A stretch of DNA of 64,000 nt from Mobula hypostoma (taxonomy: Eukaryota), in contig NC_086097.1 of NCBI RefSeq assembly GCF_963921235.1, forward strand, positions 137,332,001 through 137,396,000, written 5' to 3'. The notes beneath the pieces are model-generated. The model was not told where the DNA came from. It did not search any database and worked only from the letters and a program-made list of their open reading frames with translations. Shown here piece after piece: positions 4,326 through 54,010 of this stretch. How positions within the stretch are numbered: position 1 is the first letter of the stretch; each line of letters starts with the position of its first letter. The position numbers were made by a program, and so were the translations under genes.

Positions 4326-5832
4326 AAAAAGGTGCCGTGTTCTGAGTAATCTTACTAAAGAGCTGTTGCCCTATCATCTCTGTATGTGTGTTCCACTTTG
4401 ACAGCTCTCCCAAGCAGATGAGTGCTGGAGAGAATAAAAGATTAATGTAATTTTAGAATCAGGCTGAAACCGAAGAGACAAGCCAATTAATAACAGTGCG
4501 TCAACGTCAGCTGAAATTACTGCCTGAGATTACATCTGCTTTCCTATCGTCGCTGAGAATAAGCTCAAGTGAAGCGTTGACGGGAAGCAGGACCAAGTGA
4601 GAATGTCAGCTAATACAGAGACTTCCTAATGCATTTATAAACGTGAAAGATGACATCCAACATCCAAACTGACATGAACGAAAATAGAAATGCTTGAAGC
4701 TGTATTAGTTTTCCTTCCCTATTTCTCATTATGTTATGTATGCACTAGTATACACACAGTTGTGGATACACATATACAATATAAAACAGTACAGACCCTT
4801 CAGCCCATGATATCTTTCTGACCTTATAACCTAGTTTAAGATCAATCTAATCTAACCTTTCCCTCCCACATAGCCCTCCATTTTTTGTATCATTCATGTG
4901 CTTATCTAAGAGTTTCTTAAATGTCCCTAATGTATTTGCCCCTACCACCACACTTGGCAGAGGATTCCACACACCCATCACTCCCTGTGCAAAACAATTC
5001 ACCTCTGACATCCTCCTTATACTTTCTTCCAATCTCCTTAAAACTATGTATTAGTCATTTCCATACTGGGGGAAAAATCTGACTATGCCTCTTATCATCT
5101 GTATACCTCTCATTCTCATTTGCTCCAAAGAGAAAACCCCTAGCTCACTCAGTCTATCCTCATAAGACGTGCCCTCTAGACCTGGTAGCATGGTGCTGTA
5201 TCTCCTCTGCAGCCTCTCTAAAGCTTCCACATGCTTCCTATAATTGTCAGGCAGGTATATAGCCAAGTCCCCACCCAACTAACAGGAATCATCTGCCACT
5301 TGTTTCCAATGTATCACCGGCAGCCTATTTAAACCCAGCTCTCAGCCACAGTCCTTGTTCACCCATTGGACCAATCAGCCCCAGCCAGATGTTCTGGGCC
5401 TTCAGTTCCCTCGTAGCCACGATGCGTTAAGTATCTGCTCTCTCTTGTTTTGTGGCCCAATCTGGTTTGTTATTTTACAGATTTTTTGAAGTGGTCACTC
5501 ATTGCTAAATTGATACTGCTTGCTTCACATTTGGGTCAAGACTTCTCTAAATTTCCTGGCAGGATGGGTGAACCCATGATTGGCCCAGGCAGAGAATGCT
5601 CATCGAAAGGAAGTTGCTTGCTGATATGAGTGCACAATCCAAAAACAGCAGGAATCCACTGACCATCTGTACGACACTCTCAACCAACTCTCCGCCTCAT
5701 TACAGCTACCCCATGCCAGTCAACCCTTTCCCTTACAGCCCCAGATTTCAGGGCCGAATGCTTCAACAGATTCCCCAACTTCGAGTCTCCGTCTGTATTG
5801 CACTTCAAGATGCAGCCATCGCTGTATACCAT

Positions 5833-8080
5833 GGACCCTCACACTCGATACTGGATTACACTGTGGGATTCAGGACCCTCACGCTCATTACTGGATTACA
5901 CTGTGGGATTCAGGACCCTCACACTCGGTACTGGATTACACTGTGGGATTCAGGACCCTCACGCTCGTTACTGGATTACACTGTGGGATTCAGGACCCTC
6001 ACGCTCAGTACTGGATTACACTGTGGGATTCAGGACCCTCACGCTCATTACTGGATTACACTGTGGGATTCAGGACCCTCACACTCGGTACTGGATCACA
6101 CTGTGGGATTCAGGATCCTCACACTCGGTACTGGATTACACTGTGGGATTCAGGACCCTCACACTCGGTGCTGGATTACACTGTGGGATTCAGGACCCTC
6201 ACACAAGTTACTGGATCACACTGTGTGATTCAGGACCCTCACACTCGGTACTGGATTACACTGTGTGATTCAGGACCCTCACGCTCATTACTGGATTACA
6301 CTGTGGGATTCAGGACCCTCACACTCATTACTGGATTACACTGTGGGATTCAGGACCCTCACGCTCATTACTGGATTACACTGTGGGATTCAGGACCCTC
6401 ACGCTCATTACTGGATTACACTGTGGGATTCAGGACCCTCACACTCATTACTGGATTACACTGTGGGATTCAGGACCCTCATGCTCATTACTGGATTACA
6501 CGATGAGATTCAGGACCCTCACGCTCGGTACTGGATTACAGGGTGAGATTCAGGACCCTCACGCTCGGTACTGGATTACATTGTGGGATTCAGGACCCTC
6601 ACACTCGGTACTGGATTACACGGTGGGATTCAGGACCCTCACACTCGGTACTGGATCACACTGTGGGATTCAGGATCCTCACACTCGGTACTGGATTACA
6701 CTGTGGGATTCAGGACCCTCACACTCGGTGCTGGATTACACTGTGGGATTCAGGACCCTCACGCTTGGTACTGGATTACACTGTGGGATTCAGGACCCTC
6801 ACGCTCGTTACTGGATTACACTGTGGGATTCAGGACCCTCACGCTCGGTACTGGATTACACGGTGAGATTCAGGACCCTCACACAAATTACTGGATTACA
6901 CTGTGAGATTCAGGACCTTCACACTCGATACTGGATTACACTGTGGGATTCAGGACCCTCACGCTCATTACTGAATTACACTGTGGGATTCTGGACTCTC
7001 ACACTCGATACTGGATTACACTGTGGGATTCAGGACCCTCACATTCGGTACTGGATTACACTGTGAGATTCAGGACCCTCACGCTCGGTACTGGATTACA
7101 CTGTGAGATTCAGGACCCTCACGCTCATTACTGGATTACACTGTGGGATTCAGGACCCTCACACTCGGTACTGGATTACACTGTGGGATTCAGGACCCTC
7201 ACGCTCATTACTGGATTACACTGTGGGATTCAGGACCCTCACACTCGGTACTGGATTACACTGTGGGATTCAGGACCCTCACGCTCATTACCGGATTACA
7301 CTGTAGGATTCAGGACCCTCACACTCAGTACTGGATTACACTGTGGGATTCAGGACCCTCACGCTCATTACTGGATTACGCTGTGGGATTCAGGACCCTC
7401 ACACTCATTACTGGATTACACTGTGGGATTCAGGACCCTCACGCTCATTACTGGATTATACTGTGGGATTCAGGACCCTCACGCTCATTACTGGATTACA
7501 CTGTGGGATTCAAGACCCTCACACTCGGTGCTTGATCACACTGTGGGATTCAGGACTCTCACACTCGGTACTGGATTACACTGTGGGATTCAGGACCCTC
7601 ACGCTCATTACTGGATTATACTGTGGGCTTCAGGACCCTCACACTCGGTACTGGATTACACTGTGGGATTCAGGACCCTCATGCTCATTACCGGATTACA
7701 CTGTAGGATTCAGGACCCTCACACTCAGTACTGGATTACACTGTGGGATTCAGGACCCTCACGCTCATTACTGGATTATACTGTGGGCTTCAGGACCCTC
7801 ACACTCGGTACTGGATTACACTGTGGGATTCAGGACCCTCATGCTCATTACCGGATTACACTGTAGGATTCAGGACCCTCACACTCAGTACTGGATTACA
7901 CTGTGGGATTCAGGACCCTCACGCTCATTACTGGATTACACTGTGGGATTCAGGACCCTCACACTCATTACTGGATTACACTGTAGGATTCAGGACCCTC
8001 ACACTCAGTACTGGATTACACTGTGGGATTCAGGACTCACACTCGGTACTGGATTACACTGTGGGATTCAGGACCCTCAC
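5833..8080 (+). repeat. Minisatellite, about 56 copies of a 40-bp unit (ggaccctcacRctcRKtactggattacactgtgggattca)
   Basis: Strict 40-bp periodicity is directly visible, with one 2-bp deletion near 8036. Confidence 0.99.
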
Positions 8081-8920
8081 AATGCTACTTTTACCATCAC
8101 AGACTCTCAGACCAATTGAAAGACAAGTTGTCTACCCTGACGATGCCCATCGACCTCGAAAGCCTTATCACTCTAGTCCTCCGAATTGACAAGAGTCTTG
8201 TGGAACGACCCTTCAGATCATCATCTCGAACCCCAATTTCATTCCCAGAATCACTTCAGGCCACAAGACCCTCATTATTAGTGCCTCCAGTACCCAAGCA
8301 CTTATGGAGAGCTCCCTAACTCCCCAAGCGTGGGAGCATCAGTGGAGAAACAATTTGTACACTCACTGTGGAGCCACTGAACACTCGTGCATCAAATGCC
8401 CACTGCACCCAGGAAAACAGCATCACCAGGTAGAGACAAGAGGCCTTCTCTCTGGTTGTCTCCCTCCACACCCTCATTCCAGTAGCATGAGCCATCTCAC
8501 TTTGTCTTCCTCCACATCCCAACCGCTCTCTGCACGCGGCTGATGGTGCTGGAGTCTGGCACAGCAGGGAACTTTCTGAACCAGCAGTGACAGCTTGGAC
8601 TCCCTACTGAGCCTTTCTCTTATTTCCGTATTACAGCCACCGACAGACATCCCTTGGGTCTACACACACGCACGTGTCCTGTGCACATAAGCATTGGAGA
8701 GCACTCAAGTCCATCCAAGAACTCTTTATTGACCCACCCAATTCTAACCCTGGCTCTCCACTCATGACCCTCACTTCACCTGGCCACCTGGTTCACTATT
8801 GAATTGGAGATGCTCACCCACCTCAAAAGCCTCATCATGACCCTCACTTCATCCCATAGATCCGTGGAGATGGAGGAAACTTTCGACCTGACCAAACTCC
8901 CACAGGAAACCACGACTTAA

Positions 8921-20749: not shown

Positions 20750-23700
20750 AATCCAAAAGACCGTGTCAGGGATCTGGAGCTGCAGCTGATGACCTACTGC
20801 TTATTAGGGAAAGTGAAGAGATGATAGACGGGGGCTACAGGGGTCAGAAAACTGGGTGACTGTCAGGAGAGAGAAGGAGACTTCCCGGATAGTGGAGAGC
20901 ACCCCTGTGGCTGTCCCCCTCAGTGACAAGTATCTTATTCTGGATGTTGTTGAGGGGGATGACCTGACAGGGGACGTCCACGGTGACTGGGTCTCTGGCA
21001 CTGAGCTTGGCGCTGCTGTGCAGGAGGGAAGGAGGGAGAAGAGGAATGCGGTAGTCATAGGGGATTCCATAGTCAGGGGAACAGACAGGAGATTCTGCGA
21101 GCCTGATAGAGATACCCGCATGGTGTGTTGCCTCCCTGGTGCCAGGGTACAGGCTGTCTCGGATCAGGTCCAGAATATTCCGAAGGGAGAGGGCGAGCAG
21201 CCAGTTGTCTTGGTACATGCTGGTACCAATGACATAGATAGGATGAGGGAGGAGGTCCTGAAGAGAGATTTCCGGGAGTTAGGAAGGAAGCTGAGAAGCA
21301 GAACCTCCAGGGTAGTAATCTCAGGATTGCTACCTGTGCCACATGCTAGTGAGGGCAAGAATAGGTAGGATCAGGAAGATGAATGCATGGCTGAGAGACT
21401 GGTGCAGGGGGCAGGGCTTCAGATTCTTGGATCATTGGGATCTCTTCTGGGGGAAGTATGACCTGTTCAAAATGGACAGGTTACACCTGAACCCGAAGGG
21501 GACCAACATCCTGGTGGGAAGGTTTAATAGAGCTGTTAGGGAGGGTTTAAACCAATCTGGCAGGGGGATGGAAACCAGAATGATAGAGCGGAGGAAGGGG
21601 AAAACAGAAATAAATCTAAGATAGTGAGCAGTAAAGATGTCAGGAAAGACAGGCAGGTGATAGGGCAAATTTGTAGCCATTGGGATGATTTGCAGTGCAA
21701 TCAAAGCAAAAAGTATCAAATACTGGTCTTAAGGTGTTATACTTAAATGCACGCAGCATAAGGAGTAATGTGGATGATCTTGTTGTACAGCTATAGATTG
21801 GCAGGTATGATATTGTGGCCATCACTGAGACCTGGCTAAAGGATGCATGTCTCTGGGAGCTGAACGTCCAAGGATACACGGTGTATCGACAGGATAGGAA
21901 GGTAGGCAGAGGGGGTGGCGTGGCTTTATTGGTAAGAAATGATATTAAATCATGAGAAAGAGGTGATATAGGATCGGAAGGTGCAGAATCTTTATGGGTT
22001 GAGCTAAGAAATCACAGGGGTAAAAGGACCCTGATGGCAGTTATTTATAGGCCTCCAAACAGCTGCAGGGATGTGGACTACAAATTACAACAGGAAATAG
22101 AAAAGGCTTGTCAGAAAGGCAGTGTTATGATAATTGTAGGGGAATTTAACATGCGAGTAGATTGGGAAAATCATGTCGGCACTGGATCTCAAGAGAGAGA
22201 ATTTGTAGAATGTCTGCGAGATTGCTTTTTAGAACAGCTTGTTATCGAGCCCACTAGGGGATCGGCTGTACTGGATTGGGTATTGTGTAATGAACCGGAG
22301 GTGATTAGAGAGATAGAGGTGAAGGAACCCTTAGGAGGCAGTGATCATAACATGATTGAGTTCACTGTGAAATTTGAAAAAGAGAAGCCAAAATCCGATG
22401 TGGCTGAGAGACTGGTGCAGGGGGCAGGGCTTCAGATTCCTGGATCATTGGGATCTCTTCTGGGGGAAGTATGACCTGTTCAAAATGCACAGGTTACACA
22501 GGTATTTCAGTGGAGTAAAGGAAATTATAGTGGCATGAGAGAGGAACTGGCCAAAGTTGACTGGAAAGGGACACTGGCAGGAAAGACGGCACAGCAGCAG
22601 TGGCTGGAGTTTATGCGAGAAGTGAGGAAGGTGCAAGTCAGGTATATTCCAAAAAAGAAGAAATTTTCGAATGGAAAAAGGATGCAACTGTGGTTGACAA
22701 GAGAAGTCAAAGCCAAAGTTAAAGCAAAGGAGAGGGCATACAAGAAAGCAAAAATTAGTGGGAAGACAGAGGATTGGGAAGTTTTTAAAACCTTACAAAA
22801 GGAAACTAAGAAGGTCATTAAGAGGGAAAGGATTAACTATGAAAGGAAGCTAGCAAATAATATCAAAGAGGATACTAAAAGCTTTTTCAGTTATATAAAG
22901 AGTAAAAGACAGGTGAGAGTAGATATAGGACCGATAGAAAACGATGCTGGAGAAATTGTAATGGGAGATAAGGAGATGGCGGAGGAACTGAACGAGTATT
23001 TTGCATCAGTCTTCACTGAGGAAGACATCAGCAGTATACCGGACACTCAAGGGTGGCAGGAAAGAGAAGTGTGCGCAGTCACAATTACGACAGAGAAAGT
23101 ACTCAGGAAGCTGAATAGTTTAAAGGTAGATAAATCTCCCGGACCAGATGGAATGCACCCTCATGTTCTGAAGGAAGTAGCTGTGGAGATTGCGGAGGCA
23201 TTAGCGATGATCTTTCAAAAGTCAATAGATTCTGGCATGGTTCCGGAAGACTGGAAGATTGCAAATGTCACTCTGCTACTTAAGAAGGGGGCAAGGAAGC
23301 AAAAAGGAAATTACAGACCTGTTAGCTTGACATCGGTGGTTGGGAAGTTGTTGGAGTCGATTGTCAAGGATGAGGTTACAGAGTACCTGGAGGCATATGA
23401 CAAGATAGGCAGAACTCAGCATGGTTTCCTTAAAAGAAAATCCTGCCTGACAAACCTATTACAATTTTTTGAAGAAATTACCAGTAGGCTAGACAAAGGA
23501 GATGCAGTGGATGTTGTATATTTGGATTTTCAGAAGGCCTTTGACAAGGTGCCACACATGAGGCTGCTTAACAAGATAAGAGCCTATGGAATCACAGGAA
23601 AGTTACATACATGGATAGGGTGTTGGCTGATTGGCAGGAAGCAGAGAGTGGGAATAAAGGGATCCTATTCTGGTTGGCTGCTGGTTACCAGTGGTGATTC

Positions 23701-24486
23701 ACAGGGTTCCATTTTGGGGCCACTTCTTTTTACATTGTACATCAACGATTTGGATTATGGAATAGATGGCTTTGTGGCTAAGTTTGCTGATGATACAAAG
23801 ATAGGTGGAGGGGCTGGTAGTGCTGAGGAAACAGAGAGTCTGCAGAGAGACTTGGATAGATTGGAAGAATGGGCAAAGAAGTGGCAAATGAAATACAATG
23901 TTGGAAAGTGTATGGTTATGCACTTTAGCAGAAGAAATAAATGGGCAGACTATTATTTAAATGGGGAGGGAATTCAAAGTTCTGAGATGCAACGGGACTT
24001 GGGAGTCCTCATACAGGATACCCTTAAGGTTAACCTCCAGGTTGAGTCAGTGGTGAAGAAGGCGAATGCAATGTTGGCATTCATTTCTAGAGGAATAGAG
24101 TATAGGAGCAGGGATGTGATGTTAAGGCGCTGGTGAGACCTCACTAGGAGTACTGTGGGCAGTTTTGATCTCCTTATTTAAGAAAGGATGTGCTGACATT
24201 GGAGAAGGTACAGAGAAGATTCACTAGATGTGAAGAATTTTTTTTGCCAGAAGTTGGTGAATCTACGGAATTTGTTGCCACGGGCGGCAGTGGAGGCCAA
24301 GTCATTGGATGTATTTAAGGCAGAGATTGATAGGTACCTGAGTAGCCAGGGCATCAAAAGTTATGGTGAGAAGGCGGGGGAGTGGGACTAAATGGGAGAA
24401 TGGGTCAGCTTATGATAAAATGGCGGCGCAGACTCAATGGGCCGAATGGCCGACTTCTGCTCCTTTGTCTTATGGTCTTACGGTCT
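20750..24486 (+). mobile_element. Near full-length CR1 LINE: ORF1 with SGNH/GDSL esterase, ORF2 with APE endonuclease and RT (inactivated)
   Basis: ORF1: VIGDSIVRG, CCLPGARV, VHAGTND, DRLHLN. ORF2: YLNARSI, ITETWL, IYRPP, GGSDHN, KSPGPDG, YLDFQKAFDKVPH, KFADDTK. 3' tail gtcttatggtcttacggtct. Stops, frameshifts and a deletion near 24228. Confidence 0.95.
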
Positions 24487-25832: not shown

Positions 25833-27587
25833 TTATGTGTTACAAGTCAGTGCCTCTGCAAATGGGCCAAGAAGGTTTTTATTAAAGATGCACCTTATCC
25901 AAATCAGGTACGTTGTAAATGGTTTAATGTTTTCTATAAACGTGTAGTTCTGGTGAGGCAAGATGTAGGGCATATATGTGTTCTCACCTTGTTCCTGTAT
26001 CCAAACCTCATATGTCACCTCTTTTACCTTCAGGTACTTCAGATTCCAAGGTACTTGCCAGGAAACAGACAACTTTGCTTCACTGGCACTCTGGACAGAG
26101 GCTTGACATATGGAATCTCGCACTTTCCCAGGATATATTATACTTCTTGCTTTAACCTTCCCGAGAGGAGGTTTTGATTTCACTGACTGGTGAATTGCAG
26201 TCATCACAGATGTGATATCTATATGGGTGTCTTGATAAATACGGAATAGCCATTCAGGATTTCGGCAGCACAGGTGGCGAGGGACTTCTTTGCTCTTTAC
26301 AATGCGCTCTTGTTCAACTCTATCAAGGTGAGCAATTCCACCTTGTTCCCAGGGTCTGTCAGGATGGGTAACAGTATTCTCTTCCTTTGTGTTCTGCCAA
26401 GCAACATACTGTAGGTCCATGTTCAGGAGAGATGCCAGGGTTTTATAGGGCGTGTAATGCTCTGGGTTCACGGCATAAGGAAAAAGTTCAACAACCACAG
26501 CACCCCTAGGCAGAAACATTGCCATCACTAGTTGGGATCCATGCATGCTGACCAACATGGAGGCACCACTAATCAGTCTGACGAGGTCCCCGAAGGAATA
26601 CGCGTCCAGAGACACCGCAATAGTCTTCATCTGAAACTCCTGTGCTAGTGCTAGGATCAACTCTGCTTCATTCAAGATCAACCTGTTAACTGTGCGACTG
26701 AACAGTACAATGTACTCTTCACCACTGGAGCTTGTAGTAATGTTTAACTTTTCCACAATGAAGTGTGTGAATTGCCTGATTTCATTTCCAGATACCAATA
26801 TATTTGCTTTTGGTCCCTGAGGCTGGATGAAGCCGTACTGGTACCAAGTTGTCATTTTTGACAACCCAACATAAGATTTTGTAAAGCAAAGCAAACTCCC
26901 AAGACTCTTCAATTGTTCCCTCAGAAGAGGTTGTTTGTTACTAAATAATTTGTAGAGCTCAAAGTGCAACCCTTCATTCCACCCTTCCATAAAGACCAAG
27001 CGCGAATCTTCATTCAAGTCCTGAAACTGCAGCATTGTGTAGTAGATCGGGAGCAGATCATCATGGAAGATGTGCATGAGGTTATCCGGATTGAACCGAT
27101 TCATAATCAGTGCAACGTCTGGCACAAAGACTGGCTTCTGCATGAATTTGAGAGCTGCAACAGGCAATTCCACAAAATTGAAGTACTGGGCAGTGTGATC
27201 TTCCACAGAGGACAGGTCTAGAAGAGCAGGCTGGAATCGCCGCGAGCCCAGGTTCGGCAGCAGTATAGAGGCGTTGCCGTGGAAGAAGACAAACTCTTCA
27301 GCCTCTGTAGAGTAGCAGAGGGACTCGATCCGACAGATCCGCTCAGTATGCATTCTCCCGGTGCAAACCATTCTGGTGCCATTTTCCATAAGAGCCTGCA
27401 GGGCTGCGTGGTAGTCAATCTTAACTTGGGACAGCTCTTGGGTTTGCTGGGATAGCAACAATTCTTCTTCCAGTGAAGTGACCTGCTCCCACAACTTGAC
27501 ATACTTCCACAGCACTGCCGCCAGGATGGACACAAGAAGAGCGTTGACAATAATTGCTATGCTCATTCTGCGGTTTGATTTAGACAT
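25833..27587 (-). CDS. POMGNT2: Protein O-linked-mannose beta-1,4-N-acetylglucosaminyltransferase 2 (GT61 family, C-terminal FN3 domain); single coding exon
   Basis: Intact 584-aa ORF. It has an N-terminal signal-anchor ([16 protein letters not shown]), the motifs [41 protein letters not shown] and [20 protein letters not shown], and an FN3 domain ending [16 protein letters not shown], all matching vertebrate POMGNT2. The true start is probably the second ATG at 27566 ([11 protein letters not shown] aligns to human MHLSAVLNALL; A at -3). Confidence 0.97.
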
Positions 27588-27654
27588 GTAGAGCTAAGTG
27601 CATATCACAGCAAGCTGATGGCAAAGAGACCCCTCTCAAGGCAGCGTGAAGACC

Positions 27655-27677
27655 CTTGAAAAGACAACATTGTTAGA
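27655..27677 (-). promoter_or_regulatory. POMGNT2: Splice acceptor and branch point of the POMGNT2 coding exon
   Basis: Minus strand reads tCTAACaatgttgtcttttcaAG|ggtc: branch-point CTAAC at 27676-27672, a pyrimidine tract, and AG at 27656-27655, 67 nt upstream of the first in-frame ATG. Confidence 0.7.
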
Positions 27678-28203
27678 TAGTTGCTTCCAATTAAAACACA
27701 TTCAAAAATTGAATTAGATCCCTCAAAATCACAAGGAGACAAAGGGGGAGGCAGCAATGATAATTTACAGTCATGTACCGTTTTGACATAATAAACAACC
27801 AAGGGATTAGGATAAGAAAAGAACAATTTGTCACCAAACTACCAGGTCAAATCTTGGTAAGATACAAGGATGTCTACTGGAAGATGGAGCAAGGTGGAGA
27901 GGCAGAGTTGTCGGAAGAATTTCCCAGGGAAGTTGCAAAGGGATGGTCACTGATGGTGCAGAGATTGAAAGTAGGGAAGACCCAGAGCCTGGAATCGAAG
28001 AGGATATTTCCATGCTGCATCTCCTGAATACTCTAAGAATGGAGATGACAAAGGGATGTGGGAAGGGATAGGGTAGGGAAGGATGTGTTTATGAGCAAAA
28101 CTGAAGACTGAAAATAGAATATGGGCCAGATCAGCAGCAGTGTAGGTCAGTGAGTAGAGAACTTCTGAAACTATGGAAATGGTGCAAATTAGAATTTGAA
28201 TGA

Positions 28204-28417
28204 CGCAAACACGAGGAAATCTGCAGATGCTGGAAATTCAAGTAACACACACAAAATGCTGGTGAACACAGCAGGCCAGGCAGCATACATAGGAAGAAGC
28301 ACAGTCAACATTTCAGGCCGAGACTAGAAGGGTCTTGGCCTGAAACGTCGACTGTGCTTCTTCCTATGGATGCTGCCTGGCCTGCTGCGTTCCACCTGCA
28401 TTTTGTGTGTGTCTCTA
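28204..28417. mobile_element. Penelope-derived foldback mini-element (two inverted terminal repeats)
   Basis: Arms of about 80 bp at 28245-28324 and 28332-28412 are reverse complements; probable TSD agaatttgaatga/agagtttgaatga. Confidence 0.85.
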
Positions 28418-28724
28418 AGAGTTTGAATGAGATCATCTTTAGAACAAATGAGAGGTGGAGATCACTTCATCACCTACCTCTCCCCTCTCTGGAAGGCTGA
28501 ACCACGTGTGAATAAATCATCCAGCTGATTCAGGAAGCACATCCATCACTATTGCCAATATCCTTGGGTACTTTCCCCAGTCCTCGGTGCGGTGTACCCT
28601 CTGCAATACAGAGGGGTTTGTTCCTAGAAAAAAGTCTGTTTGTAATTTTCCACAATGCAAATCGTTTCTCCCACTGAATCTCTCAACAATTGTGTCCTGG
28701 CTGGTGCATGGCCTATAGACAAGG

Positions 28725-30310
28725 CAACACACACAAAATGCTGGAGGAATTCAGTAGGTCAGGCAGCACCTATGGAAATGAATAAAGTCGACGTTTCGGG
28801 CCAAGACCCTTCATCAGGACTTGAAAGGAAGGGGGAAGACAACAGAATAAAAAGGTGGGGGGAGGGGAAGGAGGATAACAAGAAGGTGATAGGTGAAGCC
28901 AGGTGGGTAGGAAGGTGAAAGGGCCAGAGAAGAAGGAATCTGATAGGAGTGGAGAGAGGACCATGGAAGAGAAGGAGGAGGAGGGGATCCAGGGGGAGGT
29001 GATAGGCAAGTGAGAAGAGGTAAGGTGCCAGAGTGGGGAATAGAGAAGAGGGGAGGGGAAGGGGCACTTTTTTTTTTACCAGAAGGATTAATTGACGTTC
29101 ATGTCATCAGGTTGGAGACTACCCAGATGGAATATAAGGTGTTGGTCCTCCCCCTCGAGGGTGGCCACATCGTAGCACAAGATGAGGCCATGGACCGACA
29201 TGTCAGAACAGGAATGGGAATTGGAATTAAAATGTTTGGCCACCAGGAAGCTCTGCTTTTGGCAGATAGAGCGCAGATTCTTGACGAAGCAGTCCCCCAA
29301 TTTACAAAGGGCCTCACCAATGTAGAGGAGGCTGCATCAGGAGCACTGGACACAATAGACGAATCCAGCAGATTTGCAAATGAAGTGTTGCCTTACCTGG
29401 AAGGACAGTTTGGGGCCCTGAATGGAGGTGAATGGGCAGGTGTAGCATTTTGGCCACTTGCAGGGATAGGTACAGGGAGGGAGATTAGTGGGGAGGGACG
29501 GATTGGCAAAGGAATCACAGAAGGAGCCATCCCTGCAGATGGTGAAGAGGAGAGAGGTAAAGATATGTTTGGTGGTAGGATCTCTTTGGAGATGGCAGAA
29601 GTTGCAGCGAATGATATGTTGGAAGTGGAGGCTCATGGGGTGGTAGGAAAGGACAAGAGGAACTCTGTCACTGTTAAGGCAGTGGGGAGATGGGGTGCGC
29701 GTGGATTTCAGGAAATAGAGAAGACGCAGACAGAGGAGGGAGGTGTCAGAAATGGACCAAGTGAATTTAAGGGCAGGGTGAAATTGATAAAATTCACAAT
29801 CTCAGCATGGCTGCATGAAGCAGCATCACTGCCATCATCAATATATCAAAGGAAGAGTTGGGGAGTATAAATGGGGAAGGCTTGAAACAAGGACTGTTCT
29901 ACATAGCCAACGAAAAGGCAGGTATAGCTGGGGCCCATGTGGGTGCCCACGGCTATCCCTCACGTCTGGAGAAAGTGGGAGGAGCAAAAGGAAAAATTGC
30001 TAAGGGTGAGGAGTTCTGCCAGATGGAGGAGGGTGGTAGTGGAGGGGAACTGGCTGGTCCTTTTATTCAGAAAGAAGTGGAGAACTAGAAGGCCTTCCTG
30101 ATGGGGGATAGAAACGTAGAGGGACTGGACATCGATGGTGAAAATGAAGCCATCAGGGCCAGGGAATTGAAATTTAGGGAGGAGATCAGGAGCATGAGAA
30201 GTATCACGGATGAAGGTGGGAGGGGACTGAACCGAGGATAGAATGGAGTCGAGGTATGAGGACAAGGGTTCAGTGGGACAGGAACAGGCAGAGACAATAG
30301 GAATTCTGAC
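28725..30310 (-). mobile_element. Penelope-like element, 5'-truncated and decayed (RT and GIY-YIG endonuclease)
   Basis: FIFTIDVQSLY, NFSFCSSHFLQT, MGTHMGPSYACLFVGYVE, YCVQCS...VAKHFNS, IFHLGSLQPD; 3' terminal repeat with hammerhead. Confidence 0.9.
28785..28822 (-). ncRNA. Minimal type I hammerhead ribozyme (PLE-associated)
   Basis: Minus strand AAGUC-CUGAUGA-A-GGG-UCUUGG-CCC-GAA-ACGU-C^GACUU: complete core, stem I of 5 bp, stem II of 3 bp, palindromic stem III ACGU. Confidence 0.8.
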
Positions 30311-30382
30311 TGTATCGTACATATGAGAGGTACAGTGAAAGGGTTGTTGTTTTTATTTACTAGAAATGGACATTACATTCAT

Positions 30383-30795
30383 AAAATATTGCAGGAATTC
30401 AGCAATGTCAGGCAGCATCTGTGGAAGGATAAGCAGTCAATGTTTCAGGCTGCGACCCTTCATCAGGACTGGAAAGGAAGCGGGCAAAAGCCAGATTAAG
30501 GTGGTGGGCAAGGGGTAGTACAAGCTAGCAGGTGATAGGTGAGCATGAGGCGGGGGGGTGAAGATGGATGGATGGAGGAGGAGGAGGAATGAAGAAAGAA
30601 GTTGGAAGGTGATGGTGGAAGGGGCAAAGGGTTGAAGAAGCAATCTAATAGGAGAAGACAGTGGATCATGGAAGAACGGGAAGCAGGAGGGGAACCAGGG
30701 GAGTTGATGTGCGGGTGATGAGAAGAGTAGAGATGAGAGGGTAATCAGAATGAGGAGTGGTAAAACAGAGGAGGAGGGAATGGGGAGTCATTATC
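30383..30795 (-). mobile_element. Penelope terminal-repeat fragment with decayed hammerhead (30434-30471)
   Basis: Minus strand cagtcctgatgaagggtcgcagcctgaaacattgactg, plus the pyrimidine-rich 3' UTR. Confidence 0.75.
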
Positions 30796-32417: not shown

Positions 32418-33040
32418 ACACACAAAATGCTGGAAGATCTCAGAGGCCAAGCAAATCTATGGAAAAGTGTAAACAGTCAACATTTTGGGCCGAGGCCCTT
32501 CATCGGGACTGGAAAAAAAATTTAAAGTCAGAGTAAGAAGGTGAGGGGAGGACAGGAAGAAGTACAAGGTAGCAGGTGATAGGTGAAACTGGGAGAGGGG
32601 GAAGGGATGAAGTAGAAATCTGGGAAGTTGATTGGTGAAGGAGATAAAGGGGAAGCTGATAGGGGAGAACAGAAGGCCATGGAAGAAAGGGAAAGGGGAG
32701 GAGCACCAGAGGGAGGTGATGGGCTGGTAAGGAGATAAGCTGAGAGAGGAAAATGGGAATGGGGAATGCTGAAGGAGAAGGGGGGGGGGCATTATCAGAA
32801 GTTCAAGAAATTGATGTTCATGTCATCAGGTTGGAGGCTACCCAGACAGAATATAAGGTGTTGCTCCTCCAGCCTTAGCATGGCCTCTCCATGGCAGTAG
32901 AGAGGCCATACTGACATGTCGGAATGGAAATGGGAAATAGAATTGAGATGGGTAGATGGATGCTGCCTGGCCTGCTGAGTTCCTCTAGCACTTTGAGTGT
33001 AATCCTTTGATTTCCAGCATCTGCAGAATTTCTCTAGTTT
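32418..33040 (-). mobile_element. Penelope-like fragment with inverted second terminus
   Basis: Terminus at 32418 with decayed hammerhead at 32474-32511; GIY-YIG C-terminus at about 32795-32950; inverted terminus ggatgctgcctggcctgctgag at 32958-33040. Confidence 0.85.
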
Positions 33041-42365: not shown

Positions 42366-43163
42366 CAGATAATCTCTAGTTTACCATGGTAATTGAGCAG
42401 AGATTATCTTTGATTAATGAATTAATAACAATAATTATGGGTTTTTAAGGAAAAAGGTCGTCCTGTTGCTTATTTACATGTATTCACTATTTCATTATTC
42501 ATAAAAGTATAACAGAGACATTGAAGTAAAAGAAGTATTTTAGAAAACCTGTTGCAAATATTAATACTAACTTTTTAAAAAGACAATTGGAAAATAACAA
42601 TTTCTATTGTAACTGCTTACAGTCCAAATACTGATGTGTACGTCAGGTCTATGAGGATTTCAAAATGTATCATCCAATGCCACATGTTCTCTGGCTAGTG
42701 CTAAGCCAGCATGAGATGTTCCCTATGAAATCGTCTAATTGCTCTCAGGTTGTTAAAAAAACGTTCGCTGCTTTGTTTGCCAGTAAAGATAATCATTATG
42801 TATTTTTTAATATAATGGACAGGGTATAAAGAATTGAGGGGCAGCACGGCATGATGCGTGCTTACAAAGGTTTGGTATGTGCATTCTTGGGCATAAGTGC
42901 CCTAGGTTCACCATCCTAGTTAATCTCACCTCATATGGCAGAACTGCTATGAGTAATTAATTACATTCATTTACAGTTCAAAGGTAACATTAACTTCTAG
43001 CTTCTAGCATCACTCATTCCCACACCACCTCTGCTGACAAGACTACTTTTCAACCCCACCTCCTCCCTCTCCTTTCTATTCAACACCTCTCCAGTTTCAT
43101 TACCCACTCTCCTGCTCTACAACAACACCTAGCCACATCGGGCTCCGTTTTATTTTCTTAGAA

Positions 43164-44336
43164 CAGCGGTCCCCAACCACCAGGCCGCAAAGCATGCGCT
43201 ACCGGGCCGCGAGGAAACGATATGATTTGGCGATAGGAGTCAGCTGCACCTTTCCTCATTCCCTGTCACGCCCACTGTTGAGCTTGAACGCACGCGAGCT
43301 CATTACCCGCGCGTCGTCCATGTCAGTGCGGGAAGGAGTTCAACTCCTCGAGCTTGCAAATGACGGTGGGCTGAAAAGTATGTTTGACATAACATCTCTG
43401 CCAGCATTCTGGATCAAAGTCAAGGCTAAATATCCTGAGATAGCCACGAAAGCACCGAACACGTTGCTTCCATTTCCAACATACCTCTGCAGTGAATGCA
43501 ACTAAAACTAAATTGCGGAATAGACTGGACATAAGGAACCCCGTTCGAGTATCACTGTCTCCCATCACCCCTCGATGTTGCAGGGAAACAAGCCCAGGGC
43601 TCCCACTGATTCAGTGATATTGGCGTGTTGCAATGATTTTATATGTTCATACGGGGAAAATATGTGCTGTGTTTAATATCCAAACGTTACTTAAAATGTT
43701 ATGATGCTATTGACCTACTTATATAAACAAATAACAATTACAGCACGGAAACAGGCCATCTCGGCCCCTTCAGTCCGTGCTGAACTCTTACTCTCACCTA
43801 GTTCCACCGACCTGCACTCAGCCCATAACCCTCCATTCCTTTCCTGTCCATATACCTATCCAATTTTTCTTTAAATGATAATATTGAACCTGCTTCTGCC
43901 ACTTCTACTGGAAGTTCGTTCAACACTTACTTCAAGCTCCCCTGTCCTCCCCTGATAATTGACTTATCACTATATTCATGCAAGGAAAATATGTGCTGTG
44001 TGTTTAATATTAAATTCGTTAGATAAACGCTTTTAGAAACGAAATTGAATGTATTAGCCACTTATCACCTATATTCCGGTCGTGATTAACACCCCCCCCC
44101 AAACAGAATCGCCAAAAACGATTTGCAGAAAAAAAATCGGCAGGTACACACATGCGCACTGGTGCCCGCGCAAGGCTTCATGGTCATTGTAGTCTTTGTA
44201 GTCTTTCTCTGGGTAAACACAACGTATTTGACTGCTACTCTTGTCCGATGGCAACCCTACTCACCCCCCCCCCACCACACCGCGTTGGCCAGTCCGCAAG
44301 AATATTGTCAATATTAAACCGGTCCGCAGTCCCCCA
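43164..44336 (+). mobile_element. Non-autonomous hAT (Charlie/Buster) element with transposase dimerisation-domain remnant
   Basis: TIR cagcggtccccaacc; perfect 8-bp TSD tcttagaa (43156-43163 and 44337-44344); LLELANDGGLKSMF...FWIKVKAKYPEIA...LLPFPTYLC; 3' TIR damaged. Confidence 0.9.
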
Positions 44337-44389
44337 TCTTAGAACACATGAACATGTGGTACCTGGGTTTAAATAGAATGAAAGTGGGA

Positions 44390-44935
44390 GCAATAAACAA
44401 AATGCTGGAGGAACTCAGTGGAGCATCTGTGGAGCAAAATGGATAGCTGACATTTCAATGCTGAGACGCTTCATCCAGCCTAAACAACAGAGGGGAATTA
44501 GTCAGAATAAGGAGCGAGAGGAATGGTTGGAGAGAGGGCTGGTAAGCAATAGGCAGATCTTGGAGAAGGGGGCTGATAGACAAATTGAGGAGGGACGTGT
44601 GGAAATAGTGACAGGCTGATGGCTGATGGGTGGCGGCCACAAAGCGCAGCAAAACAATGGAATCTGATAGGAGAGGAAGGTGGAACATTGAATCAAATGG
44701 GAGATGAAGGGGCATATGTGAACAGTGGAGCGAGTTGTCCTCCAATTCCATCTGCCCAGCACCAACACACTCTTTCCATTCCAGTGGGAGGAAGGTGCGG
44801 GTGATGGGAAGATGGAACTGGAGGAGCTGGAGAAAGACACAGAATGATGGGGGCCAGTGGTGGGTGTAGGAGGAACTGGAATAGAGAAAAAAGGGAACAG
44901 ATGGAGAGCAGATTACCTGAAATTGGAAACAAAGT
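44390..44935 (-). mobile_element. Decayed Penelope terminal-repeat fragment
   Basis: aaatgctggaggaactcag terminus plus a purine-rich tract on the plus strand. Confidence 0.65.
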
Positions 44936-47669: not shown

Positions 47670-49585
47670 AGCATCTCAGGAACCAACTAGAGAGCAGGCT
47701 ATTCTAGATTGGGTATTGAGCAATGAAGAAGGGTTAATTAGCAATCTTGTCGTGAGAGGCCCCTTGGGTAAGAGTGACCATAATATGGTGGAATTCTTCA
47801 TTAAGATGGAGAGTGACATAGTTAATTCAGAAACAAAGGTTCTGAACTTAAAGAGGGGTAACTTTGAAGGTATGAGACGTGAATTAGCTAAGATAGACTG
47901 GCAAATGACACTTAAAGGGTTGATGGTGGATATGCAATGGCAAGCATTTAAAGATCGCATGGATGAACTACAACAATTGTTCATCTAAGTTTGGCAAAAG
48001 AATAAATCAAGAAAGGTAGTGCACCCGTGGCTGACAAGGGAAATTAGGGATAGTATCAATTCCAAAGAAGAAGCATACAAATTAGGCAGAGAAAGTGGCT
48101 CACCTGAGGACTGGGAGAAACTCAGAGTTCAGCAGAGGAGGACAAAGGGCTTAATTAGGAAGAGGAAAAAAGATTATGAAAGAAAACTGGCAGGGAACAT
48201 AAAAACTGACTGTAAAAGCTTTTATAGATATGTGAAAAGAAAAAGATTGGTTAAGACAAATGTAGGTTCCCTACAGACAGAAATAGGTGAATTGATTATG
48301 GGGAGCAAGGACATGGTAGACCAATTGAATAATTACTTTGGTTCTGTCTTCACTAAGGAGGACATAAATAATCTTCCAGAAATAGTAGGGGACAGAGGGT
48401 CCAGTGAGATGGAGGAACTGAGGGAAATACATGTTAGTAGGGAAGTGGTGTTAGGTAAATTGAAGGGATTAAAGGCAGATAAATCCCCAGGGCCAGATGG
48501 TCTGCATCCCAGAGTGCTTAAGGAAGTAGCCCAAGAAATAGTGGATGCATTAGAGATAATTTTTCAAAACTCTTTAGATTCTGGACTAGTTCCTGAGGAT
48601 TGGAGGGTGGCTAATGTAACCCCACTTTTTAAAAAAGGAGGGAGAGAGAAACCAGGGAATTATAGACCGGTTAGCCTAACATCGGTGGTGGGAAAACTGC
48701 TAGAGTCAGTTATCAAAGATGTGATAACAGCACATTTGGAAAGCGGTGAAATCATCGGACAAAGTCAGCATTGATTTGTGAAAGGAAAATCATGTCTGGG
48801 GAATCTCATAGAATTTTTTGAGGATGTAACTAGTAGAGTGGATAGGGGAGAACCAGTGGATGTGGTATATTTGGATTTTCAAAAGGCTTTTGACAAGGTC
48901 CCACACAGGAGATTAGTGTGCAAACTTAAAGCACACGGTATTGGGGGTAAGGTATTGATGTGGATACAGAATTGGTTGGCAGACAGGAAGCAAAGAGTGG
49001 GAATAAACGGGACCTTTTCAGAATGGCAGGCAGTGACTAGTGGGGTACCGCAAGGCTCAGTGCTGGGACCCCAGTTGTTTACAATATATATTAATAACTT
49101 GGATGAGGGAATTAAATGCAGCATCTCCAAGTTTGCGGATGACACGAAGCTGGGCGGCAGTGTTAGCTGTGAGGAGGATACTAAGAGGATGCAGGGTGAC
49201 TTGAATAGGTTAGGTGAGTGGGCAAATTCATGGCAGGTGCAATTTAATGTGGATAAATGTGAAGTTATCCACTTTGGTGGCAAAAACAGGTAAACAGGTT
49301 ATTATCTGAATGGTGGCCAATTAGGAAAAGGGGAGGTGCAACGAGACCTGGGTGTCATTATACACCAGCCATTGAAAGTGGGCATGCAGGTACAGCAGGC
49401 AGTGAAAAAGGCGAATGGTATGCTGGCATTCATAGCAAGAGGATTCGAGTACAGGAGCAGGGAGGTACTACTGCAGTTGTACAAGGCCTTGGTGAGACCA
49501 CACCTGGAGTATTGTGTGCAGTTTTGGTCCCCTAATCTGAGGAAAGACATCCTTGCCATAGAGGGAGTACAAAGAAGGTTCACCA
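47670..49585 (+). mobile_element. CR1 LINE ORF2 fragment (endonuclease end and RT), 3' end missing
   Basis: EPTREQAILD, GKSDHN, KSPGPDGLHP, YLDFQKAFDKVPH, KFADDTK; same subfamily as 1615-3391. Confidence 0.95.
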
Positions 49586-49984: not shown

Positions 49985-51543
49985 CAACACACATCAAAGT
50001 TGCTGGTGAACACAGCAGGCCAGGCAGCATCTCTAGGAAGAGGTACAGTCGACATTTCAGGCCGAGACCCTTCGTCAGGACTAACTGAAGGAAGAGTTAG
50101 TAAGAGATTTGAAAGTGGGAGGGGGAGGGGGAGATCCAAACTGATGGGAGAAGACAGGAGGGGGAGGGATGGAGCCAAGAGCTGGACGGGTGATTGGCAA
50201 AGGGGATATGAGAGGATCGTGGGACAGGAGGCCCGGGGAGAAAGACAAGGGGAGGTGAAACCCAGAGGATGGGCGAGGGGTATAGTCAGAGAGACAGCGG
50301 GAGAAAAAGGAGAGTGAGAGAAAGAATGTGTGTATAAAAATAAATAACGGATGGGGTACAAGGGGGAGGTGGGGCATTAGCAGAAGTTAGAGAAGTCGAT
50401 GTTCATGCCATCAGGTTGGAGGCTACCCAGACGGAATATAAGGTGTTGTTCCTCCAACCTGACTTCATCTTTACAGTAGAGGAGACCATGGATAGACATG
50501 TCAGAATGGGATTGGGATGTGGAATTAAAATGTGTGGCCACTGGGAGATCCTGCTTTCTCTGGTGGACAGAGCGTAGGTGTTCAGCAAAGCGGTCTCCCA
50601 GTCTGCGTCGGGTCTCGTCAATATATAGAAGGCCACATCGGGAGCACCGGACGCAGTATATCACCCCAGCTGACTCACAGGTGAAGTGTCGCCTCACCTG
50701 GAAGAACTGTCTGGGGCCCTGAATGGTGGTAAGGGAGGAAGTGTAAGGGCATGTGTAGCACTTGTTCCGCTTACAAGGATAAGTGCCAGGAGGGAGATCA
50801 GTGGGGAGGGATGGGGGGGACGAATGGACAAGGGAGTCGGGTAGGGAGCGATCCCTGCAGAAAGCAGAGAGAGGGGGGAGGGAAAGATGTGCTTAGTGGT
50901 GGGATCCCGCTGGAGGTGGCGGAAGTTACGGAGAATAATATGTTGGACCCGGAGGCTGGTGAGGTGGTAGGTGAGGACCAGGGGAACCCTATTCCTAGTG
51001 GGGTGGCGGGAGGATGGAGTGAGAGCAGATGTACGTGAAATGGGGGAGATGCGTTTGAGAGCAGAGTTGATAGTGGAGGAAGGGAAGCCCCTTTCTTTAA
51101 AAAAGGACATCTCCCTCGTCCTGGAATGAAAAGCCTCATCCTGAGAGCAGATGCGGCAGAGACGGAGGAATTGCGAGAAGGGGATGGCGTTTTTGCAAGA
51201 GACAGGGTAAGAAGAGGAATAGTTCAGATAGCTGTGATAGCTGTGAGAGTCAGTAGGCTTATAGTAGACATCAATGGATAAGCTGTCTCCAGAGACAGAG
51301 ACAGAAAGATCTAGAAAGGGGAGGGAGCTGTCAGAAATGGACCAGGTAAACTTGAGGGCAGGGTGAAAGTTGGAGGCAAAGTTAACAAAGTCAACGAGCT
51401 CAGCATGCGTGCAGGAAGCAGCGCCAATGCAGTTGTCGACTGTACCTCTTCCTAGAGATGCTGCCTGGCCTGCTGCGTTCACCAGCAACTTTGATGTGTG
51501 TTGCTTGAATTTCCAGCATCTGCAGAATTCCTGTTGTTTGCGT
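49985..51543 (-). mobile_element. Young Penelope-like element with inverted terminal repeats and TSD
   Basis: RT (ALKFTWSISDSSLPFLD, KNAIPFSQFLRL) and GIY-YIG (VIYCVRCSRCGLLYIDETRRRLGDRFAEH); inverted termini at about 49985-50054 and 51434-51502; 14-bp TSD tgttaaattataaa (49971-49984 and 51544-51557). Confidence 0.95.
50047..50082 (-). ncRNA. Minimal type I hammerhead ribozyme (PLE-associated)
   Basis: AGUC-CUGACGA-AGG-GUCUCGG-CCU-GAA-AUGU-C^GACU; core intact, stem III differs from ACGU by one probable CpG transition. Confidence 0.75.
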
Positions 51544-53479
51544 TGTTAAATTATAAAGTTTGTTTGGAAAGAAAAATAAAAGAGATTTAAGGGTGACGAT
51601 CTAGGACATACAAGATGATTGATTAAAGGGCTTTTTAGGATAGATTATGGCAAACTATTTCTTCTAGTGTGAAAGTTTAGGACAAAGGAGCATAGAATTA
51701 AGTGAAAACTTGGCCATTCGGAGATGATGCCAGGAAGTGCTTCTCATGCGAAGAATAAGAGAACGCTGGAAATTTTCCAAAGGGCTGTCATGGCTGGCAG
51801 TCAACTTCAACATAAAAGCTTGTAAAGTAAAGAGCACTAAGGCTTAGAAAACAAAATAGGGCAACAGAACAGAAATAAAGGGGAGCAATCACTGACAAAA
51901 CTTGTTGGAGGAGCCAACTGTTTCACATCTATTCGTATAATCAGTCGTCTTAAAAAAGGCACAGGATACAAAAGTATGGTACATGTAATGGTACAGGTTC
52001 TTGTATGATACAAAATTTGGAAGGTCATGGTATTTTTTCCCCAGCTTAACAGATGGTTTCATAGGCCCTCTGATATTCTGTTCAATTAAAGCAAAAATTG
52101 AACATGCTTGATAAAACAGACTACCCAATTACAATTATCCATTAAGCACTAGCCCCACCTCACCTTACACCCAGGACAATTTCAATATTGGCCTAATGAA
52201 ACCACCTTCTTCCTATAAAAAAGACAAAAGCATTAAGAGGGAAAGTTGGAACTGGTCACATGCTTGAATTGGGCCAACTTCAATAATCAAACCACTCCTA
52301 TCCCCAATTTGTTTACAACATACTCGAGCAATCTCATCTTGCCCACAGCAAAACTCACTATCTTACAGTGAGAGAGGAAAGTGATAATAATTAAAGCTCA
52401 CCGTGGCCTGCGAAAGATGGATGAAAATCAGTCTTCCAGCTCACATCCTTTACATGGACATTTTTTTTGAAAAATGGGAATAGATGAAAACATGGTGAAT
52501 ATAATTGTAGGGTAGAGACTAAAGATGAACTGTGGTAAGAAAAAAAAGCTCTGAACCATATTACAACATCTATTTGCATCATTCAACATTTGGATTATTC
52601 CGTTTGGTCACATTAAAGTAGTGCTAACTGAACTTTAAAATAATTTATCAAATGACAAACAACTTGGGTTTTGGAAAGTTCAGTTGGATGTAAATGAGCT
52701 AATACTCTTGAGGCTTTGCACTTGGGTTGTCTCACTTCTGAAGCACTGCTACATGTTCCTTTAATATTACGGCAGTAAATAGGAAAATGAGCAGAGGCAC
52801 ATTGCCTTACAATTGCTAACACAGAAGACAGCTTAAACTGTTTAACATCTCAGCTGCAGACCACTGGTAAAAGATAATCGATTTGACATGTTTCTCTCTG
52901 CCCTGCTGGATATTTCTCGAATTTTCTGTTTTTATTTCACATTCCCAGCATCTGCAATTATTTGCTTTTGGACTATTGATTAAATGGATTGTACTGAGAT
53001 TTTCCTATCAGCCCATTACAGATTGCCATATTGTCAAACCATGGAAATAAGGACTTTAACACATTCCCTTTGAAGCAATTCCCTCTCCTTCATCTTTCCT
53101 CAAGGAATAACACAGCGCCAGGTGCACGAAAGAAAGAGCCCGAGTGGGAGGCACTCATTAGCTTAGGCCTCCGGCAGTGGGTTCTCTGCAGAAAGCATCA
53201 GGTCCTTAAATGGGCCGTTATCAATCACCACACATGTTTGTCCCTGTTCTATCTGAGGCAGCATCCATTGAACGCACAGATCCGGGTTATCTTGCTAATA
53301 ACATCAGTCCTATCAGTTAAGCTTAAATATAATTAGATGAACATCAATCATATGCATTGGATCATAATGCATACGCCTGACATGTTGCAGCAAGCACACA
53401 TACATTGTATCTGTGGTCATACATAAGAATCGAAAGATTGCACTTCATATCAAATACTGCAGTGCACCTTTCACGAAAA

Positions 53480-54010
53480 GACCGTCCGCCTGCTCCCGTG
53501 CACTTACAGTACCCTGGTTCCTACAGTGGCTACGCTACACACTGGAAATGGCAGGCCCGGCCCAGCGCTGCTACCACAACACACGCACACAGGCTCCTGT
53601 CCTGTCCAGTCCTGCCGCGGACACGTCACGCGTTGCCATTCGTCACAGGACGGGGGCTCAGCTCCAGAGGCTGCGCTTCCACTGCATCGGGTCGTTTCAG
53701 GCGGCGACGAAGGTTGCGATGCCACCCGATACTATAAATTGCGCCGATAAATTGTTTAGAGTGCTGGGGAGAGAAATAATCTCTCTCCACTGCTGCAGAC
53801 TCGTGGCCCACATCTTGTCTATATTAAAGATCGGGAAGATTAACCCTTGTCACAGCAAACGTCCCCATTCCGCCGATCATATCCACCTTCCTCATCCACA
53901 ATCTCGGACTGAATGAGGCTCGCAGTATCCGTGCTCTGCCCGACCTTGGAGGCGAGCCCCTGAGGTCCAACTTGCCCTTCTTATTTTCCCAATCTCCGCC
54001 CCCCTCCCCT
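53480..54010 (-). promoter_or_regulatory. POMGNT2: CpG-rich candidate promoter and non-coding exon 1 of POMGNT2
   Basis: The clearest non-repeat CpG-dense stretch in the window. Minus-strand donor act|GTAAGT at 53507-53502, CRE/E-box-like cacgtcacgcg near 53622, CCAAT and GC box (ctccgcccc) near 53988-54003. The link to POMGNT2 is inferred from position and orientation. Confidence 0.55.

What the first reader, a model, noticed from the sequence alone, without database searches (positions are those of the whole stretch)
28785..28822. Intact minimal hammerhead ribozyme 1.1 kb upstream of the POMGNT2 acceptor, in sense orientation
Seen: the minus strand has a full hammerhead core (CUGAUGA...GAAA...GUC^), stem I AAGUC/GACUU, stem II GGG/CCC and a palindromic ACGU in place of stem III; predicted cleavage is between 28790 and 28789. 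Known: Penelope-like elements carry such short type I hammerheads, which cleave as dimers through the palindrome. Inference: this copy has kept its CpG-rich core although its host PLE is full of frameshifts, and it would be transcribed in the POMGNT2 pre-mRNA.
Basis: partly seen in the sequence, partly recalled or inferred. Interest (0 to 1): 0.75.

Follow-up and report, generated by a model that had tools for sequence, protein, structure and literature searches.

The report
Ordinary Penelope hammerhead in POMGNT2 intron
The small self-cutting RNA motif in this fish gene's intron is real, but it is one of more than 13,000 intact copies left by Penelope-type jumping genes; it likely stayed intact by chance and is predicted not to cut the host transcript, because it has no intact partner copy nearby.

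Summary
The motif is real and the coordinates are right (28785-28822, minus strand; predicted cut 28790/28789). It is a minimal type I hammerhead in the 3' pseudo-LTR of a 1.6-kb, 5'-truncated, broken Penelope-like element, a kind described in 2014. It is not rare: 13,291 intact cores in this genome (reversed control 0).

The copy belongs to an old subfamily (0 of 27 randomly sampled spanning copies intact). Neutral decay predicts 62-320 intact survivors genome-wide, and about 150-170 are estimated. Random copies lose catalytic bases as fast as neighbouring bases. This copy is less diverged than most and has lost one of four CpGs. Its A-U pair in stem I is expected about 1.5 times by chance.

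Spliced contigs reveal an unnoticed 146-nt 5' UTR exon (28478-28623), so the motif lies 162 nt upstream of that exon's acceptor, in the preceding intron. Such motifs need a dimer partner or the element's protein; the three same-strand neighbours are damaged. It is most likely an inert passenger. Cleavage and conservation of the core in relatives are untested. The scan has reported such motifs before in other genomes (998 notes).

The parts
28785..28822 (-). Minimal type I hammerhead motif: stem I 28818-28822/28785-28789, core 28811-28817, extra A 28810, stem II 28807-28809/28798-28800, loop 28801-28806, GAAA 28794-28797, palindrome ACGU 28791-28794, C17 28790
   Evidence: sequence; only descriptor hit in the window
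28720..30310 (-). Host Penelope-like element, 5'-truncated: RT C-terminal pieces, GIY-YIG-type endonuclease end, pyrimidine-rich 3' region, hammerhead, tail; frameshifts, stops, internal deletion (ends approximate)
   Evidence: tblastn and blastn coverage; named homologs with PF00078/PF01541/PF26215
28720..28784 (-). 3' tail of the element, downstream of the predicted cut
   Evidence: tail HMM hits; blastn coverage drops to 0 below 28720
28478..28623 (-). 146-nt single-copy 5' UTR exon of POMGNT2, AG/GT bounded, carrying three upstream AUGs (uORFs of 9, 27 and 30 codons)
   Evidence: spliced contigs X5 and X2; single copy; splice sites and uORFs
25833..27654 (-).
   Evidence: ORF, Pfam PF04577 E=1.3e-13 and PF00041 E=0.004, contigs break at 27653/27654
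28270..28386 (.). Younger head-to-head PLE stub: inverted repeat of two hammerhead 3' halves without CUGAUGA; one arm is complementary to the 28785-28822 motif over 27 nt with one mismatch
   Evidence: alignments; folding; insertion 28179-28417 absent from organisms J and K
30434..30471 (-). Nearest same-strand hammerhead relic, 1,649 nt upstream: G10.1-U11.1, broken palindrome
32474..32511 (-). Same-strand relic with U4 and G12 changed (dead core)
50046..50083 (-). Same-strand young-subfamily motif 21 kb upstream, G10.1-U11.1 and U15.2

Best explanation
The motif is the minimal hammerhead in the 3' pseudo-LTR of an old, broken Penelope-like insertion in a POMGNT2 5' intron; it likely stayed intact by chance and is predicted to be silent in the pre-mRNA. 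Shown: motif, host element, copy numbers, intronic position, damaged neighbours. Inferred: in the ancestral active element two motifs paired through ACGU/ACGU and swapped stem I strands, probably helped by the element's protein, to cut the element's own RNA. Here a lone copy cannot close stem III, is predicted to fold into an inactive rod, and would be spliced out uncut. It was noticed because it is the one intact survivor among 18 tail copies in the window.
For: 13,291 exact intact cores and 1,277 with this loop type, reversed controls 0; about 518,000 tail copies estimated from 167 in 1.12 Mb. Old subfamily: expected intact 62 (site product) to 320 (Poisson), bootstrap 18-598, against about 150-170 (410 x 11/30 or 11/26). 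Retention in 27 random old copies: catalytic non-CpG bases 218 of 270 (0.81), all non-CpG hammerhead bases 731 of 891 (0.82), 3' spacer 361 of 459 (0.79), CpG bases 107 of 216 (0.50). Flank divergence of this copy is 8 of 82 (9.8%) against a mean of 16.6%; 4 of 27 are as low or lower. A-U pair expected 1.5 times, seen in 1 of 30 and 1 of 30 loci, both this site. Monomer rod -11.0 versus hammerhead-like -7.4; active dimer -13.7 versus two monomers -22.0 or inactive duplex -32.1; stem I probability 0.02-0.26 in context. Neighbour heterodimers -4.9, -11.6, -9.1 with 2-3 mismatched pairs. PMC4209133: a single min-HHR shows no cleavage and dimers low activity. PMC11167929: the anole PLE ribozyme does not cleave without PLE protein, and no RNA-seq read ends were found at its site. 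Spliced POMGNT2 contigs exist in 4 of 8 runs laid (X1, X2, X4, X5).
Against: For a copy of this age the chance of keeping all 27 fixed positions is only about 2%, and it also shows a pair-preserving double change in stem I, so this single copy is statistically unusual. The 11 other intact old copies are not less diverged in their flanks than random ones (0.18 vs 0.166, p=0.29), so youth does not explain intactness in general. The insertion is old, shared with organisms about 5-6% diverged, and the motif sits 162 nt from an acceptor. The decay estimate rests on 27 copies of mixed old lineages. Nearest-neighbour energies omit core tertiary contacts, and a young intact copy gives the same unfavourable figures. 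Mature mRNA does not exclude partial or post-splicing cleavage.
Confidence: 0.85

Rival explanations
1. Unselected but leaky: the lone motif is occasionally cut in trans, by pairing with RNA from the thousands of intact young copies or with help from PLE protein or RNA chaperones, with little effect on POMGNT2 output.
For: The core is complete. By inspection a young intact copy could form 4+4+4 pairs with it. 13,291 intact cores exist. Protein-assisted cleavage was shown for the anole element (PMC11167929 passages). Cleavage inside introns often leaves splicing intact (PMC6097652 passage on intronic miRNAs).
Against: Needs a bimolecular encounter during the short life of an intron; antisense copies are equally abundant (6,592 vs 6,699 by strand) and pair far more strongly (-50.9 kcal/mol with the arm at 28325-28356); dimer activity is low even in cis.
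Confidence: 0.1
2. Domesticated regulator: the copy was kept by selection and cuts the nascent intron 162 nt before a uORF-bearing 5' UTR exon, tuning that exon's inclusion or POMGNT2 level, as proposed for the conserved intronic hammerheads of amniotes.
For: Old, shared insertion; about 2% chance of an intact core at its age and a pair-preserving double change; close to an acceptor; the exon has three uAUGs.
Against: Intact survivors match neutral expectation; double change expected 1.5 times genome-wide; no stem III and no intact cis partner; known domesticated intronic hammerheads are not minimal forms (PMC6155905 passages; monomer competence recalled); the exon seems to be in most contigs rather than alternative.
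Confidence: 0.05

Closest known systems
Minimal hammerheads (min-HHR) in pLTRs of metazoan Penelope-like elements (Cervera and De la Pena 2014, PMC4209133; parts 1 and 2 of 4 read)
   Same: Type I topology, conserved core, extra nucleotide between 9 and 10.1, G10.1-C11.1, 5-bp helix I, palindrome at 15.2-16.2, no helix III, mostly single dispersed copies, located in the pLTR.
   Different: Helix II is only 3 bp (4 with U-G) against 7-8 bp in the schistosome families; the host is a cartilaginous fish, not named in the parts read; copy number (13,291 exact) exceeds the about 4,000 and 9,000 given for coelacanth and Xenopus.
Poseidon PAc hammerhead of Anolis carolinensis (PMC11167929, passages read)
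   Same: Vertebrate PLE hammerhead with stems I and II, followed by a tail that marks insertion ends.
   Different: PAc is a Poseidon-clade element tested in vitro. The element here has a CX4CX2C linker before the endonuclease, typical of Neptune/Nematis, and is dead.
Neptune-clade EN+ PLEs (described in PMC8557442, passages read)
   Same: RT then C-terminal GIY-YIG, Zn-finger-like linker, 5' truncation, inverted stubs, tail.
   Different: Clade assignment rests on the linker motif only; no phylogeny was built.
Conserved intronic hammerheads of amniotes (RECK and others; PMC6155905 passages)
   Same: Type I hammerhead of retroelement origin, sense in an intron.
   Different: Those are conserved across classes. 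This one is minimal, still inside its element, one of thousands, and shows no demonstrated conservation.

Membership tests
PLE minimal hammerhead (min-HHR) | Core CUGANGA ... GAAA ... UH | tested here: met
   CUGAUGA, GAAA, GUC
PLE minimal hammerhead (min-HHR) | Extra nucleotide between 9 and 10.1; G10.1-C11.1 | tested here: met
   A28810; G28809-C28798
PLE minimal hammerhead (min-HHR) | Helix I of 4-5 bp, no helix III, palindrome at 15-16 | tested here: met
   AAGUC/GACUU, ACGU
PLE minimal hammerhead (min-HHR) | Located in the pLTR of a PLE | tested here: met
   downstream of RT and endonuclease pieces, followed by the tail
PLE minimal hammerhead (min-HHR) | Self-cleavage as a dimer or with protein | not testable with these tools
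   dimer can be drawn without mismatches, -13.7 kcal/mol; no assay
Rfam hammerhead families (Hammerhead_1 and others) | Covariance-model match | tested here: not met
   no hammerhead hit at E<=5 or E<=10; likely because helix III is missing
EN+ Penelope-like element | RT followed by GIY-YIG endonuclease | tested here: met
   host copy aligns to the window's 50380-51545 copy at 54-88% identity; that copy's direct GIY-YIG hit is weak (E=0.16), but homologs carry PF00078+PF26215 (P0011) and PF01541+PF26215 (P0015)
Neptune clade | CX2-5CxxC linker between RT and EN | tested here: met
   CKWPKCYTC in the host copy's 29337-29801 frame
Neptune clade | RT phylogeny | not tested
   no tree built
Domesticated intronic hammerhead | Core conserved across species beyond neighbouring sequence | tested here: inconclusive
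   insertion shared with organisms J and K, but contigs break before the core
Domesticated intronic hammerhead | Able to fold as an active monomer (helix III present) | tested here: not met
   no loop between C15.2 and G16.2

The most novel reading that the evidence does not exclude
An old Penelope half-ribozyme has been domesticated as a sensor: it can cut only when a partner motif or chaperone is supplied in trans by expressed Penelope elements, and the cut, 162 nt before a uORF-bearing 5' UTR exon, would couple POMGNT2 splicing or output to transposon activity. Thousands of sense intronic copies could respond in the same way.
Probability: 0.04. Interest if true: 0.7.

Novelty: new member of a known kind. 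Interest (0 to 1): 0.12.

Why it matters
As one locus it matters little: it is one of thousands of copies of a described motif. The useful points are general. A cartilaginous-fish genome carries over 13,000 intact minimal hammerheads, so intact sense intronic copies are expected in many genes, which argues that they are tolerated. The same genome allows a test of an open question, whether PLE hammerheads cut in vivo: compare the strand bias of intact and dead copies inside introns. The most abundant young lineage carries G10.1-U11.1 (36,060 exact copies), which suggests that a canonical stem II pair is not needed for spreading.

Tried and rejected
Rfam scans gave no hammerhead family; the miRNA hits at 28273-28383 are a PLE inverted repeat. 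Folding of 28770-28840 is not more stable than shuffles (z=-0.64). No RNA holder on record was listed; the runs used are only guessed to be RNA and are contigs, so they show no ends, strand or level. The state of the core in relatives could not be read because contigs break inside the repeat. The first exon was not located: it lies outside 27000-30700; a CpG-rich candidate with a GT donor at 53507 is unverified. I first took exon 28478-28623 for a rare cassette; contig lengths (X4 149+89, X2 89) suggest it may be the main form. The uORF scan dropped one base and is replaced. No YTNAY branch motif lies between the element and the acceptor. The idea that the A-U pair marks a subfamily or selection was rejected. 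Pfam did not recognise the broken PLE pieces at E<=0.01. Lunse et al. (PMC5785218) was not held; I know it only from its title and citation in PMC6765202. Searches listed no paper on hammerheads in cartilaginous fish or on a ribozyme in POMGNT2 (listings only, top 15, 8 and 10); supplements of PMC4209133, not opened, may list such species. Dropped rows: of 95 old-type tail copies in the random sample only 27 with upstream homology entered the decay statistics, and 22 of these had no internal deletion; of 30 loci, 26 were recovered and 11 classed as spanning old copies.

Full report
Observation. C17 is 28790, so the cut would fall at 28790/28789. The pattern is not chance: 5 window matches within 3 mismatches against 0.00 in 100 shuffles. 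A structure descriptor found 20 hits in 1.12 Mb of arbitrary genome (6 with G10.1-C11.1, 14 with G-U), 0 in the reversed control, and only this site in the window. Rfam does not detect it.

Host element. The motif lies near the 3' end of a repeat spanning about 28720-30310. Upstream are RT pieces and an endonuclease end that align to a better preserved copy at 50380-51545. There are two frame switches among four RT pieces, an internal deletion of about 260 nt, and 6-18 stops per frame. Homologs of the endonuclease piece include proteins with RT (PF00078) or GIY-YIG (PF01541) domains; the closest named ones are from rays and sharks, so the host is likely a ray. A CX4CX2C linker points to the Neptune clade as described in PMC8557442 (passages); no tree was built.

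Gene context. The 586-codon frame at 25833-27593 has GT61 and fn3 domains, the layout I recall for POMGNT2. Contigs of four runs guessed to be RNA (X1, X4, X5, X2; 4 of 8 runs laid) break at the coding exon's start, 27654, behind AG at 27656-27655. In X5 and X2 the contig continues into a 146-nt exon at 28478-28623 and then into sequence not found in 27000-30700. X1 and X4 stop at the same base, and the X4 remainder equals 149+89 nt, as in X2, so this exon may be the main form. The exon is single copy and adds three upstream AUGs. The motif is therefore intronic and sense, 162 nt before this acceptor and 1,131 nt before the coding exon. Short exact-match contigs lie in the intron on both sides of it, but they may be DNA.

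How common. The 34-nt core with this loop type occurs 1,277 times; with any loop and N7, 13,291 times, evenly on both strands, reversed controls 0. That is 3.8 per Mb, or about a 5% chance of a sense copy in a 26-kb intron. In 112 arbitrary 10-kb stretches, an HMM of the tail alone found 167 copies, about 518,000 genome-wide; the window has 18.

Is this copy specially kept? It belongs to an old group. Of 27 random old copies spanning the motif none is intact. In these copies the catalytic non-CpG bases are retained at 218 of 270, all non-CpG motif bases at 731 of 891, the 3' spacer at 361 of 459 and CpG bases at 107 of 216, so there is no family-wide protection of the core. These rates predict 62-320 intact spanning copies genome-wide (bootstrap 18-598). 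The old-type pattern has 410 matches, of which 11 of 26 recovered (30 fetched) are spanning old copies, giving about 150-170. This copy's flanks are 9.8% diverged against a mean of 16.6%, and it has lost the loop CpG. Against this reading: its own chance of staying intact is about 2%, and 11 other intact old copies are not less diverged than random ones (p=0.29). The fifth stem I pair is A-U where the family has C-G, through a C-to-A change and a 2-nt deletion. There are 269 intact cores with the first change and 76 with the second, so 1.5 doubles are expected; among 30+30 loci read, only this site has both.

Age. DNA-like contigs of organisms J and K, about 5-6% diverged in the intron, run from unique flank 29 nt into the tail (J) and across the element's 5' end (J and K), so the insertion predates those splits. 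The contigs break before the core, so its state there is unknown. The insertion at 28179-28417, which carries an inverted pair of motif halves, is absent from both.

Mechanism. With no loop between C15.2 and G16.2 a monomer cannot close stem III. A dimer pairs ACGU with ACGU and swaps stem I strands (-13.7 kcal/mol) but competes with a monomer rod (-11.0 each) and an inactive duplex (-32.1); in context stem I has probability 0.02-0.26. A young intact copy gives similar figures, so these numbers describe the family and omit tertiary contacts. The same-strand neighbours at 1.6, 3.7 and 21 kb are damaged and form mismatched heterodimers. An antisense arm 430 nt downstream could pair with the motif (-50.9) but prefers its own hairpin (-68.1 arm to arm). 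Published tests agree: a single min-HHR does not cleave and dimers are weak (PMC4209133, parts 1-2 read); the anole PLE ribozyme needs the element's protein, and no read ends were found at its site (PMC11167929, passages). A review says the same on dimers (PMC6765202, passages). The inferred outcome is that the intron is transcribed and spliced out uncut (0.85); occasional cutting in trans 0.10; domestication 0.05.

Comparison. It meets every sequence feature of the PLE minimal hammerheads and differs from the conserved intronic hammerheads of amniotes (PMC6155905, passages) in lacking helix III and any shown conservation. Searches (listings only) showed no paper on such motifs in cartilaginous fish. 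Earlier notes of this scan (998 hold the search words) reach similar readings in other genomes; none exists near this place. They are unchecked and are not counted as support.

Verdict. A correct observation of a known and very abundant motif. Interest 0.12.

Noticed in passing
own genome, e.g. window 50046-50083 (-) and 57584-57621 (+): The most abundant young PLE lineage has G10.1-U11.1 instead of the canonical G-C: 36,060 exact copies of one 34-nt variant against 13,291 for all G-C forms; 23 of 35 random young copies have T there while the neighbouring CpG bases are mostly kept. It likely spread from a master element with a weakened ribozyme.
   Followed up: partly
28478-28623 (-): Single-copy 146-nt 5' UTR exon of POMGNT2 with three uAUGs (uORFs of 9, 27 and 30 codons, all ending before the main ATG); a fourth uAUG at 27603 overlaps the main start out of frame.
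   Followed up: partly
28179-28417: Lineage-specific head-to-head PLE stub forming a hairpin of about 54 bp (-103.5 kcal/mol) in the intron between the 5' UTR exon and the coding exon; absent from organisms J and K; gives false miRNA hits in Rfam.
   Followed up: partly
random loci L031, L047, L048, L056, L058, L059, L061, L062, L068: Short inverted head-to-head tail pairs, often joined within or just before the hammerhead, are common among random copies.
   Followed up: no
53500-54500: CpG-rich region (o/e up to 0.89) with a GT donor at 53507 on the minus strand: candidate POMGNT2 promoter and exon 1, implying a first intron of about 25 kb; unverified.
   Followed up: partly
5570-8190: Long tandem array of short units giving repetitive open frames.
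   Followed up: no
1857-3305, 20817-24136, 47989-49293: LINE retrotransposon copies of CR1 type (recalled), with long RT frames (553 aa at 22475-24136).
   Followed up: no
42500-44500: CpG-rich stretch with a frame resembling a hAT-type transposase end (recalled, not tested).
   Followed up: no
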